From the IMG/VR virus record IMGVR_UViG_3300014515_000023: 9,984 nucleotides of DNA; one strand, given 5' to 3'. The translations under genes and the position numbers were made by a program. Of the stretch, positions 6,387-7,088 are shown in pieces. The notes beneath the pieces are model-generated. The model made no database searches and was not told where the DNA came from. It saw only the letters and a program-made list of their open reading frames with translations. The DNA is from a virus (lineage: Duplodnaviria; Heunggongvirae; Uroviricota; Caudoviricetes). Numbering within the stretch: position 1 is the first letter of the stretch; the number at the start of each line of letters is the position of its first letter.

Positions 6387-6600
6387 CTCACAATTCAGGC
6401 GGTTGACTGTTGTCTGGTTTGCGGGGAGTTTGTTAAAAGAAACTGGCATGGTGAATCCCCCTGTGCGGAGGGGCAATCAGCGAGTAGGTATATGGGATAA
6501 TCGCGGATTCAGGTGCTGGTACTGAATTCACCGGGAGGCACCCGGCACCATGCAATGGCACATAGCGCCACTCTCCAGCCCCTCTCCGGAGGGGCTTTTC
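6387..6600 (+). repeat. Structured repeat unit, copy 1 (promoter-like box, two conserved hairpins, intrinsic terminator)
   Basis: Shares these blocks with copy 2: CTCACAATTCAG; TTGAC(T/A)GTTG; TTTGTTAAAA; CATGGTGAATCCCCCTG(T/A)GCGGAGGGGC; CTGAA(T/C)TCACCGGGAGGCACCCGGCACCATG; AGCCCCTCTCCGGAGGGGCTTT. Terminator stem GCCCCTC/GAGGGGC at 6578-6595 plus T4. Confidence 0.6.
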
Positions 6601-6790
6601 TGTGCCGGATACATCACAGTTTCTGGAACCTTAGGTACTACAGTATCAGTCAGGGTGCTATATTTTCAGATGTGATGAAAGCCTGTCAGCAGGCAGGGCG
6701 TATCGGAAATGACCCAGTAGAGAAAACGTTGACTCAGATACCGGTGCTGAGTTACCGGGAAACCGGCATCACATGACCGCTATCCTTCCA

Positions 6791-6817
6791 GGCCCATCCG
6801 CTCCGGTGGGCCTTTTT
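6791..6817 (+). terminator. Intrinsic terminator between the two repeat units
   Basis: Stem GGCCCA (6791-6796), loop TCCGCTCCGG, stem TGGGCC (6807-6812), T5 (6813-6817). Confidence 0.6.
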
Positions 6818-6854
6818 ACTGCAGAAAACAGGTTCCCCGTTAAATGCTATGTTG

Positions 6855-7088
6855 CTCACAATTCAGTAAGTTGACAGTTGCCTGTCAGACTGGGCATTTG
6901 TTAAAAAAATTTCGCATGGTGAATCCCCCTGAGCGGAGGGGCGACTGGTGACGGTATAATCTCTGATTATCAAAACGAGAATGACGCGGGTTTAGTGGCA
7001 CCGGGCTGAACTCACCGGGAGGCACCCGGCACCATGTGCATGATGATACAGATACGCGGCTTTAGCCCCTCTCCGGAGGGGCTTTCTT
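6855..7088 (+). repeat. Structured repeat unit, copy 2 (diverged tandem copy of 6387-6600)
   Basis: Same conserved blocks as copy 1, with -35 TTGACA at 6871-6876 and a consensus -10 TATAAT at 6955-6960 in the diverged central part. Terminator stem GCCCCTC/GAGGGGC at 7065-7082 followed by a T-rich run. Confidence 0.6.

What the first reader, a model, noticed from the sequence alone, without database searches (positions are those of the whole stretch)
6387..7088. Two tandem diverged structured units (promoter box, hairpins, terminator) occupy the slot where Stx phages carry stx: candidate small RNA or regulatory RNA genes
Two units of about 215-235 bp share blocks that map exactly onto predicted RNA structure: (a) TTGAC(T/A) promoter-like box; (b) hairpin CCCCT-loop-AGGGG inside CATGGTGAATCCCCCTGNGCGGAGGGGC, where the only difference between copies falls in the loop (T vs A); (c) CACCGGGAGGCACCCGGCACCATG, in which a GGGAGG Shine-Dalgarno and an ATG are sequestered in a CCGGG/CCCGG stem; (d) a GCCCCTC/GAGGGGC terminator plus T-run. 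The candidate peptides after the conserved ATG differ completely between copies (MQWHIAPLS... vs MCMMIQIRGF...), so conservation is at RNA/DNA level, not protein level. Copy 2 also has a consensus TATAAT (6955-6960). Stx-phage late regions are reported to encode regulatory small RNAs, which makes short structured transcripts here plausible. Alternatively these are duplicated late-promoter/terminator modules from phage mosaicism.
Basis: partly seen in the sequence, partly recalled or inferred. Interest (0 to 1): 0.7.

Follow-up and report, generated by a model that had tools for sequence, protein, structure and literature searches.

The report
Known prophage small RNA genes (STnc100)

Summary
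Both units match Rfam family RF02076 (STnc100) over the full model: 6417-6607 at 136 bits and 6885-7094 at 165 bits, against a gathering score of 47.

This is the prophage sRNA known as EcOnc27 or sRNA103 downstream of stx2B in EHEC, and it is related to PasD of EPEC. Relatives have been shown to be transcribed and to bind Hfq.

The window holds three units, not two. A diverged middle copy (about 6670-6819, only 30 bits) keeps the same fold through compensatory changes and has its own promoter and terminator.

Each RNA has three parts:
- a closed 5' multi-helix domain;
- a hypervariable single-stranded stretch, probably the seed;
- an intrinsic terminator.

The "conserved ATG" is the 3' strand of the closing helix P1 (GCAUGGUG/CACCAUGC), not a start codon. 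The likely -35 is TTGYCT, not the TTGACW box. The TATAAT lies inside the RNA.

A short convergent sRNA candidate on the minus strand (7095 to about 7163) completes the published "sRNA dyad" between the moron slot and nanS-p.

Verdict: already known, low interest. The minor additions are the sub-threshold third copy and the modular reshuffling of the family.

The parts
6387..6398 (+). Conserved upstream box CTCACAATTCAG of unit A. Its role is unknown. It could be the -10 (CACAAT) of an upstream start that would give a longer isoform.
   Evidence: Repeat D1. It is the most conserved upstream element across 51 distinct upstream variants. Homology with the Stx2a phage resumes here, after the stx2AB cassette.
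6403..6408 (+). It lies 24 bp upstream of the likely -10, so it is probably not the -35 of the main promoter.
   Evidence: Sequence. In homologues this position varies (TTGAAT, TTGATG, TTTATG, GGCGAT) while the adjacent TTGYCT is kept.
6410..6438 (+). Inferred sigma-70 promoter of unit A: -35 TTGTCT (6410-6415), 17-bp spacer, -10 TTAAAA (6433-6438, with TG at 6431-6432).
   Evidence: The same -35/17 bp/-10 geometry is found in the canonical, PasD-type and Shigella-type upstream variants. The RNA-seq 5' end of PasD2 maps to the homologous G of GCAUGG. This is an inference and was not measured here.
6446..6604 (+). Unit A sRNA (STnc100 family), about 159 nt.
- P1: 6446-6453 with 6546-6553.
- P2: 6458-6462 with 6469-6473.
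- P3: variable.
- P4: 6505-6512 with 6522-6529.
- P5: 6531-6535 with 6541-6545.
- Variable single-stranded stretch: 6554-6576.
- Terminator: 6577-6596, followed by a U-tail.
   Evidence: Rfam RF02076 match at 6417-6607, 136.3 bits, E 1e-30. MFE fold. Pair counts.
6656..6664 (+). Extended -10 promoter of unit B (TGcTATATT).
   Evidence: Sequence. It is conserved in the 91%-identical variant from E. albertii. It lies 5 nt before the 5' end of P1.
6670..6819 (+). Unit B, a diverged third copy of about 150 nt.
- P1: AUGUGAUG (6670-6677) with CAUCACAU (6767-6774).
- P2: 6681-6685 with 6690-6694.
- P4: about 6730-6754.
- P5: 6755-6758 with 6763-6766.
- C/U-rich variable stretch: 6775-6789.
- Terminator: 6790-6813, followed by UUUUU.
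   Evidence: Sub-threshold STnc100 match at 6646-6819, 30.1 bits, E 1.7e-4. Its MFE fold has the same architecture as A and C. Its helices are kept by both-side changes relative to A and C. It is present in 673 of 5426 E. coli genomes, with no annotated feature under the match in 11 of the 12 sampled records.
6855..6866 (+). Conserved upstream box CTCACAATTCAG of unit C.
6878..6906 (+). Inferred promoter of unit C: -35 TTGCCT (6878-6883), 17-bp spacer, -10 TTAAAA (6901-6906). The TTGACA box at 6871-6876 lies just upstream.
6914..7091 (+). Unit C sRNA (STnc100 family), about 178 nt.
- P1: 6914-6921 with 7030-7037.
- P2: 6926-6930 with 6937-6941.
- P3: variable region containing the internal TATAAT.
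- P4: present (about 6988-7012 in the MFE fold).
- P5: 7015-7019 with 7025-7029.
- Variable stretch: 7038-7063.
- Terminator: 7064-7083.
   Evidence: Rfam RF02076 match at 6885-7094, 165.4 bits, E 4e-38. MFE fold.
7095..7163 (-). Convergent partner sRNA candidate, about 65-70 nt. It has a promoter TTGCGC-18 bp-TATTAT at about 7199-7170 on the minus strand, and a strong terminator at 7123-7102 followed by U7. With unit C it forms the 'sRNA dyad'.
   Evidence: Terminator scan and sequence. It is identical to the element downstream of STnc100 in an Stx2a phage. It resembles the EPEC RIL-seq sRNA E2348C_1409.E2348C_1408.IGR. The terminator motif is found in 29 of the 145 loci; in the loci checked (L001, L145) it lies on the opposite strand just past an STnc100 3' end. 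It is not AsxR or AgvB by sequence or by Rfam.

Best explanation
The region is a tandem array of three paralogous genes for prophage-encoded small RNAs of the STnc100 family. This family is also known as EcOnc27 or sRNA103 in EHEC and is related to PasD in EPEC. The array sits in the 'moron' slot of the late region of a non-Stx lambdoid prophage, between the tRNA-Ile/Arg/Arg cluster and the nanS-p esterase gene.

Each unit is its own transcription unit:
- a sigma-70 promoter (-35 TTGYCT, 17 bp, -10 TTAAAA in A and C; an extended -10 TGcTATATT in B);
- a start at or near the first base of helix P1;
- an RNA of about 150-180 nt;
- an intrinsic terminator.

The RNA has three parts:
- a conserved closed 5' domain, in which P1 (GCAUGGUG/CACCAUGC) closes a junction carrying hairpins P2, P3 (variable), P4 and P5;
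- a hypervariable, mostly single-stranded stretch of 15-30 nt between P1 and the terminator, which differs completely between A, B and C and is the probable seed;
- a GC-rich terminator hairpin with a U-tail, the usual Hfq handle.

Proposed mechanism (inferred). The RNAs are made in the lysogen independently of Q. They bind Hfq and base-pair through their different seeds with different host or prophage mRNAs. The 5' domain acts as a stabilising scaffold.

What is shown and what is inferred:
- Shown here: family membership, fold, covariation, absence of a conserved ORF, and genomic context.
- Shown only for relatives in the literature: transcription, Hfq binding and target interactions.
- Inferred: the exact +1, the seed and the targets of these three copies.
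For: - Full-length Rfam matches far above the gathering score, plus a third weak match.
- Context: Q, DNA methylase, three tRNAs, the units, SASA/NanS-p esterase, holin, lysozyme.
- In an Stx2a phage the same RNA lies 75 nt after stx2B. The published EcOnc27 Northern probe matches the 3' module of a family member.
- Literature on relatives:
  - Convergent Hfq-bound sRNA dyads lie between the moron CDS and the conserved ORF in at least 8 Sakai prophages (PMC4104026, PMC7873438).
  - EDL933 has 11 STnc100 copies with RNA-seq reads, and one was confirmed by Northern blot (PMC5331693).
  - PasD1 and PasD2 are Hfq-dependent and have RIL-seq targets (PMC8550237).
  - PasD and STnc100 are reported to share ancestry (bioRxiv 10.64898/2026.05.13.724894).
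- Structure: 93.3% of cells are paired on 30 diverse sequences and 15 pairs change on both sides. None of 500 shuffles reached the observed values, and slid controls gave 43-50% pairing.
- Units A, B and C each fold on their own into the same architecture.
- A -35/17 bp/-10 arrangement lies at a constant distance from P1 in most upstream variants; the Enterobacter-type variant is an exception. This matches the RNA-seq 5' end of PasD2.
- The 3' stretch is hypervariable and reassorts with other modules: 34 combinations among 75 units.
Against: - No expression data exist for this exact locus, and no target was identified.
- The EcOnc27 Northern sizes (about 235 and 247 nt) are 60-70 nt longer than predicted from a start at P1. 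The Rfam model also begins 29 nt upstream of P1. The true 5' end, or a second upstream start near the conserved CTCACAATTCAG box, is therefore unresolved.
- The -10 (TTAAAA) is weak, and the simple promoter scan did not call these promoters.
- P2 and P5 are almost invariant, so they have little covariation support. P5 and part of P1 were fixed by my search pattern.
- An alternative helix (5' GGUGAAUCCC with GGGAGGCACC) is equally compatible with most sequences.
- Unit B scores below the Rfam threshold.
- The U-tails of A and C are interrupted (UUUUCUGUG and UUUCUUAUG).
Confidence: 0.85

Rival explanations
1. The conserved 5' junction domain is the functional part. It would bind a protein or a small ligand, or switch between two folds. 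The family would then act mainly as a decoy, sponge or sensor, with base-pairing through the variable stretch secondary or absent.
For: - The 5' module (GCAUGGUGAAUCCCCCUGNGCGGAGGGGC ... CACCGGGAGGCACCCGGCACCAUG) is far more conserved than the presumed seed.
- It contains GGA-bearing motifs at hairpin loop edges.
- An alternative pairing of GGUGAAUCCC with GGGAGGCACC is possible in 98% of cells.
- No direct target has been established for EcOnc27/sRNA103; its effects on espA appear indirect (PMC5030294, PMC7873438).
Against: - PasD has RIL-seq targets with a motif complementary to its 3' variable stretch.
- Unit B and PasD keep the helices but not the loop or junction sequences, which fits a scaffold better than a specific binding site.
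- The alternative helix shows no covariation and is broken in unit B.
- No Rfam riboswitch or protein-binding family matches.
Confidence: 0.1
2. The units are primarily cis-acting DNA/RNA modules of the late operon. They would be duplicated late-promoter/terminator cassettes, or stacked terminators that insulate nanS-p and the lysis genes from upstream transcription in the lysogen and are read through by Q-modified polymerase. Any RNA made would be a by-product.
For: - Three same-strand intrinsic terminators, plus the tRNA terminator at 6357-6374, lie between PR' and nanS-p.
- Lambda-type late operons do rely on Q antitermination (established knowledge).
- Phage mosaicism is evident.
Against: - The candidate PR'/tR' is elsewhere (4417-4525, directly after Q) and looks unrelated in sequence by eye; this was not tested by alignment.
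- Conservation and covariation extend over about 100 nt of structure upstream of each terminator, which a terminator does not need.
- Each unit carries its own promoter-like elements at a fixed distance.
- Relatives accumulate as discrete Hfq-bound RNAs in uninduced lysogens (PMC4104026, PMC8550237).
Confidence: 0.04
3. The units encode small proteins starting at the conserved ATG preceded by the GGGAGG Shine-Dalgarno-like motif.
For: - A GGGAGG lies 11 nt upstream of the ATG in A and C.
- Some EDL933 STnc100 copies show ribosome footprints, with ribosomal coverage values up to 3.2 (PMC5331693).
Against: - The ORF from that ATG is 1, 2, 8, 10, 26-31 or more than 35 codons long in different homologues.
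- It runs through the terminator, shares no sequence between homologues, and is absent in 5 of 29 representatives.
- The ATG and the GGGAGG are both base-paired, in P1 and P5.
- Ribosome coverage is inconsistent among copies, from 0.04 to 3.2 (PMC5331693).
Confidence: 0.01

Closest known systems
STnc100 (Rfam RF02076), equal to EcOnc27 (E. coli O157 Sakai, Sp5) and sRNA103 (EDL933/86-24)
   Same: - Units A and C match the full covariance model at 136 and 165 bits.
- They have the same fold and the same place in the prophage: after the moron slot, before nanS-p, and convergent with a short antisense-strand sRNA.
- The Stx2a phage copy has the same 5' domain, promoter region and terminator.
   Different: - The 3' variable stretches of A, B and C differ from that of EcOnc27 (AUGCAGUAUACAGAGAUUAGGCAUAUACC...), so the targets are probably different.
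- There are three copies in tandem here instead of one.
- There is no stx upstream.
PasD1/PasD2 of EPEC E2348/69 (Pearl Mizrahi et al. 2021; Zhu et al. 2026 preprint)
   Same: - Same slot directly upstream of the SASA/NanS-p esterase gene.
- Same 5' start GCAUGGUGAAUCC, P2 and P4.
- Same overall layout, with the seed just 5' of the terminator.
- Like unit B, PasD2 matches STnc100 below threshold (41 bits).
   Different: - PasD lacks the P5 hairpin and closes P1 with GCGCCAUGC.
- It has a different promoter type (TTGACT-17 bp-TTAAAA).
- Its seed UGUGAG and its terminator are not present in units A, B or C.
AsxR / AgvB / EcOnc03 anti-sRNAs (Rfam RF02703, RF02702)
   Same: They occupy the antisense-strand position of the dyad, convergent with the STnc100-type RNA. 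That is the position of the window's minus-strand candidate at 7095 to about 7163.
   Different: - The sequences are unrelated. AsxR reads CGATTATTAAACGAGTATCTCATGCAATTGCCCGAACCCACTCGGGCTTTT, while the window element ends ...TTATTCCTTGCCGCCCGCGTCTCCCAGCGCGGGCTTTTTTT.
- There is no Rfam match at E up to 10.
- The nearest described relative of the window element is the EPEC RIL-seq sRNA E2348C_1409.E2348C_1408.IGR.
StxS, or lambda 6S RNA: the short PR' transcript ended at tR'
   Same: It is a short prophage RNA made in lysogens and ended by an intrinsic terminator that Q-modified polymerase reads through.
   Different: StxS and 6S start at the Q-dependent late promoter directly after Q. The window has a separate candidate for that at 4417-4525. 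The units lie 2 kb further downstream, have their own promoters and have a different structure.

Membership tests
STnc100 (Rfam RF02076) | Covariance-model score at or above the curated gathering score of 47 bits | tested here: met
   Unit A scores 136.3 bits and unit C 165.4 bits, both over the full model 1-206. Unit B scores 30.1 bits (E 1.7e-4) and does not meet the threshold on its own.
STnc100 (Rfam RF02076) | Consensus fold: a long-range closing helix, internal hairpins and a terminal terminator hairpin | tested here: met
   The MFE folds of A, B and C all give this architecture. On 30 sequences, 93.3% of cells are paired, 15 pairs change on both sides, 0 of 500 shuffles reach the observed values, and slid controls give 43-50% pairing.
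STnc100 (Rfam RF02076) | Location in the late region of lambdoid prophages, next to the esterase and lysis genes | tested here: met
   RefSeq annotation of the identical CE10 locus reads Q, methyltransferase, 3 tRNAs, [units], SASA esterase, holin, lysozyme. An Stx2a phage has the same layout.
STnc100 (Rfam RF02076) | Expressed as a discrete Hfq-associated small RNA | not testable with these tools
   This is documented only for relatives: EcOnc27 by Hfq-CRAC and Northern blot (PMC4104026), and EDL933 copies by RNA-seq and Northern blot (PMC5331693).
PasD (EPEC) | PasD-specific 3' region with seed UGUGAG and the GGCUGCGCAUUGCGCAGCC terminator | tested here: not met
   The alignment with PasD2 shows that only the 5' module and P4 are shared. 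The 3' halves differ.
AsxR/AgvB anti-sRNA family (for the minus-strand partner) | Conserved 42-nt 3' region (GTATCTCATGC(A/T)(A/T/G)TTGCCCGAACCCA(C/T)TCGGGC) or a match to RF02702/RF02703 | tested here: not met
   No match at E up to 10 on 6340-7320. The sequence is unrelated to the published AsxR, AgvB and EcOnc03 sequences.
   Q ends at 4431. A promoter-like site plus a terminator (4503-4515 followed by T9) lie at 4417-4525. The units are 2 kb downstream, beyond a methylase gene and three tRNA genes.

The most novel reading that the evidence does not exclude
The near-invariant 5' junction domain may be a dedicated functional module: an RNase-resistant cap, or a protein- or ligand-binding platform. 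Prophages would graft interchangeable seed cassettes onto it by recombination at the conserved P1/P5 and terminator blocks. That would make it a natural 'programmable sRNA scaffold'. This array would then carry three differently programmed copies, including a sub-threshold B-type lineage found in about 12% of complete E. coli genomes that standard Rfam annotation misses.
Probability: 0.25. Interest if true: 0.5.

Novelty: already known. Interest (0 to 1): 0.2.

Why it matters
The result mainly serves as a correct annotation: RefSeq leaves this 700-bp stretch unannotated apart from a spurious partial pseudogene.

The family is relevant to pathogenic E. coli in two ways:
- One copy sits directly after stx2B, where sequence variants were reported as predictors of HUS (PMC12711010).
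- Overexpression of sRNA103 raises espA and fimZ transcripts.

The function of the family and the reason for the sRNA dyads remain open questions in the literature.

Three observations here are modest leads rather than discoveries:
- the conserved scaffold with swappable seeds;
- a third diverged copy that falls below the Rfam threshold;
- the different partner sRNA at the AsxR position.

Tried and rejected
1. **Alternative fold.** RNAalifold on my alignment proposed pairing 5' GGUGAAUCCC with GGGAGGCACC instead of P1, P2 and P5. It has no covariation and is broken in unit B, whereas P1 is kept in unit B by four both-side changes. I kept it only as a possible alternative conformer.
2. **Coding.** The ORF from the ATG is not conserved.
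3. **TATAAT at 6955-6960 as a promoter.** It is internal to the RNA, has no -35, and is confined to one P3 type.
4. **TTGACW as the -35.** The spacing is wrong (24 bp to the -10) and it is less conserved than TTGYCT.
5. **Minus-strand partner as AsxR/AgvB.** Rejected on sequence and on Rfam.
6. **PR'/tR' duplication.** Rejected on position.
7. **Pattern scan of genome contigs.** It returned about 10 chance matches in unrelated phyla (Cryobacterium, Nitrospira, Streptomyces and others). These had no or only trivial (15-nt) similarity outside the pattern and were discarded.
8. **Preprint on PasD and CsrA.** A 2026 bioRxiv preprint that mentions PasD in a CsrA interactome study could not be read.
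10. **Transcription start.** The start could not be settled from sequence. Published Northern sizes for EcOnc27 (about 235 and 247 nt) disagree with a start at P1.
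Full report
**1. Observation**

The window is the late region of an E. 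coli lambdoid prophage.
- ORFs and the RefSeq annotation of an identical locus in strain CE10 give this order: RusA (3380-3745), antiterminator Q (3742-4431), a DNA methyltransferase (4994-6043), tRNA-Ile(CAU)/Arg/Arg (6093-6342), the finding, a SASA/NanS-p esterase (7317-9170), holin and lysozyme.
  - Three repeat blocks, of 88 nt at 80% identity, 31 nt at 97% and 22 nt at 100%.
  - The two long motifs, each present exactly twice with zero matches in 200 shuffles.
  - The loop-only T/A difference.
  - The two identical terminator hairpins.
  - The TTGACT and TTGACA boxes and the TATAAT.
  - The two unrelated peptides after the ATG.

**2. Identity**

- An Rfam scan places both units in family RF02076, STnc100. 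The matches are 6417-6607 (136.3 bits, E 1e-30) and 6885-7094 (165.4 bits, E 4e-38). Both cover the full model and far exceed the gathering score of 47.
- In an Stx2a-converting phage the same RNA (160 bits) begins 75 nt after stx2B, followed by the same downstream sequence as in the window.
- Tree et al. 2014 (PMC4104026) described this locus in Sakai prophage Sp5 as the Hfq-bound sRNA EcOnc27. It is convergent with AsxR, 3' of stx2B.
  - Their Northern probe for EcOnc27 is the reverse complement of the 3' module of one of the family members I retrieved.
  - They, and a later review (PMC7873438), state that such 'dyads' of Hfq-binding sRNAs lie between the late promoter/moron and the lysis genes in at least eight Sakai prophages.
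- EcOnc27 equals sRNA103 of Gruber and Sperandio. Its overexpression raises espA and fimZ transcripts, apparently indirectly (PMC5030294, PMC7873438).
- EDL933 has 11 STnc100 copies with RNA-seq reads, and one was confirmed by Northern blot (PMC5331693).
- A 2026 preprint relates STnc100 to the EPEC sRNA PasD (10.64898/2026.05.13.724894).
  - I confirmed that PasD2 (NC_011601 741157-741328) sits in the same slot upstream of the esterase gene.
  - It matches STnc100 at 41 bits, below threshold.
- The thing is therefore already known and named.

**3. Three units, not two**

- With a permissive threshold, a third STnc100 match appears between the two at 6646-6819 (30.1 bits, E 1.7e-4).
- Read by eye and by MFE folding, this unit B has the same parts as A and C, built from different letters:

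| Helix | Units A and C | Unit B |
|---|---|---|
| P1 | GCAUGGUG/CACCAUGC | AUGUGAUG/CAUCACAU |
| P2 | CCCCU/AGGGG | GCCUG/CAGGC |
| P4 | AUUCAG/CUGAAU | ACUCAG/CUGAGU |
| P5 | CCGGG/CCCGG | CCGG/CCGG |

- Unit B also has its own terminator (6790-6813 followed by U5) and a good extended -10 (TGcTATATT, 6656-6664) 5 nt before P1.
- A 91%-identical variant in E. albertii and other contigs keeps the promoter. It re-shapes P2 and the terminator by paired changes.
- Unit B occurs in 673 of 5426 complete E. coli genomes; in 11 of the 12 sampled records no annotated feature lies under the match.
- The whole 981-nt array is at least 80% covered in 353 genomes, including CE10 and APEC O18.
- In 16 of the fetched contigs unit B is present; in the one checked in detail (L015, E. 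albertii) it lies between two canonical units, as in the window.

**4. Structure**

- I collected family members by a pattern scan of one genome per species and of IMG/VR.
  - Real matches came from Escherichia, Shigella, Klebsiella, Phytobacter and Enterobacter.
  - Chance matches in other phyla were discarded.
- I reduced the set to 29 representatives below 94% identity and aligned them with the three window units.
- On the Rfam-type fold (P1, P2, P4, P5, terminator), the counts were as follows:
  - 93.3% of cells form pairs.
  - 15 of 31 pairs change on both sides.
  - None of 500 shuffles reaches any of the five measures.
  - Sliding the partners drops pairing to 43-50%.
- P4 and the terminator covary most. 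One P4 pair is GC in 14 sequences and AU in 10. Another is AU in 22, UA in 4 and GC in 2.
- P1 covaries through unit B.
- P2 and P5 are nearly invariant, and P5 and part of P1 were fixed by my search pattern. Their support is therefore thermodynamic plus unit B.
- RNAalifold preferred an alternative helix between GGUGAAUCCC and GGGAGGCACC. It is compatible with 98% of cells but never covaries and fails in unit B.
- Units A, B and C each fold alone into P1 closing a multi-helix junction, then a loose stretch, then the terminator. The energies are about 2 sd below shuffles.
  - The CCGGG/CCCGG stem is real (P5).
  - The ATG is the 3' strand of P1, paired with the first bases of the RNA.
  - The ORF from the ATG is 1 to more than 35 codons long in different homologues, or absent, and runs through the terminator. 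The region is non-coding.

**5. Promoter and ends**

- Most of the 51 distinct upstream sequences, including the canonical, PasD-type and Shigella-type variants, share one arrangement: -35 TTGYCT (or TTGACT/TTGATT in the PasD-type promoter), 17 bp, TTAAAA-like -10, then 7-8 nt to the G of GCAUGG. The distant Enterobacter-type variant does not fit it.
- The RNA-seq start of PasD2 is that G.
- For the window this gives promoters at 6410-6438 and 6878-6906, and starts near 6446 and 6914.
- The most conserved upstream element is CTCACAATTCAG (6387-6398 and 6855-6866). Its role is unknown.
- Two observations leave a longer isoform starting near that box possible, so the 5' end is unresolved:
  - The Northern sizes of EcOnc27 (about 235 and 247 nt) exceed the roughly 176 nt predicted from P1.
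  - The Rfam model starts 29 nt before P1.

**6. Modularity**

- I split 75 units into promoter, middle (P3) and 3' parts and clustered each part at 80% identity. This gave 17, 15 and 17 types in 34 combinations, with all four combinations present for several pairs of types.
- The 3' module of unit A also occurs on a C-type body, and that of unit C on other bodies.
- The stretch between P1 and the terminator is the most variable part, and it is where PasD's RIL-seq motif maps. In unit B and partly in unit A it is C/U-rich, as expected for a seed that pairs with ribosome-binding sites.
- I therefore read the family as a conserved scaffold with exchangeable seeds, and the array as three differently addressed regulators. 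This step is inference.

**7. Relation to stx**

- Alignment shows that the window and the Stx2a phage are homologous through the tRNA-Arg terminator up to about 6384, and again from CACAATTCAG onward. The stx2AB cassette lies between these points in the phage.
- The units therefore flank the moron slot on its 3' side and are retained in Stx phages. They do not substitute for stx.

**8. Rivals**

- Late promoter/terminator duplication is unlikely. A separate PR'-like site and a tR'-like terminator sit right after Q at 4417-4525, and the conserved structure extends far beyond what a terminator needs.
- A cis role for the three terminators as extra insulation that Q overrides is plausible as a side effect.
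- A specific function for the 5' domain (protein or ligand binding, or a switch) cannot be excluded, and it is the most novel reading left.

**9. Verdict**

- Novelty: already known.
- Interest is low. The small additions are the unannotated third copy, the scaffold-plus-seed modularity, and a different partner sRNA at the AsxR position.

Noticed in passing
window 7095-7200, minus strand: There is a short convergent sRNA candidate on the minus strand. It has a promoter TTGCGC-18 bp-TATTAT, an RNA of about 65-70 nt, and a strong terminator GCCCGCGTCTCCCAGCGCGGGC followed by U7. It sits at the position AsxR or AgvB occupy in Sakai prophages but is unrelated to them. It is identical downstream of STnc100 in an Stx2a phage and resembles the EPEC RIL-seq sRNA E2348C_1409.E2348C_1408.IGR. 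The only Rfam hit is a weak OmrA-B-like match at 25 bits.
   Followed up: partly
window 4417-4525, plus strand: Directly after the Q stop codon lie a promoter-like site (TTGCAA ... TATAAA) and, about 50 nt later, a hairpin GCCGTCAGGCGG followed by T9. This layout is expected for the Q-dependent late promoter PR' with its short tR'-terminated transcript (6S/StxS-like).
   Followed up: no
window 6433-6561, minus strand (L001 7097-7222): RefSeq annotates a partial 'hypothetical protein' pseudogene on the minus strand across unit A in the identical CE10 locus. A similar frameshifted pseudogene is annotated across PasD2 in E2348/69. Both are most likely annotation artefacts over non-coding RNA genes.
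   Followed up: partly
window 6357-6380: An intrinsic terminator (GGCTCGCTTTTGCGGGCT followed by T7) follows the third tRNA gene. It is conserved in the Stx2a phage just before the stx2 promoter region. Its T-run forms a 13-nt perfect inverted repeat with the A-run/terminator of the minus-strand sRNA at 7095-7107, bracketing the whole sRNA array.
   Followed up: no
window 6387-6392 and 6855-6860: The conserved upstream box begins with CUCACA, which is exactly the target motif reported for the PasD seed (UGUGAG) in EPEC RIL-seq. This may be coincidence for a 6-mer. It would matter only if longer isoforms include the box.
   Followed up: no
L016 (Enterobacter sp. kpr-6) 385-592, minus strand: A distant family member carries two successive terminator hairpins after the 5' domain and has a different promoter arrangement. 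This suggests further architectural variants outside Escherichia.
   Followed up: no
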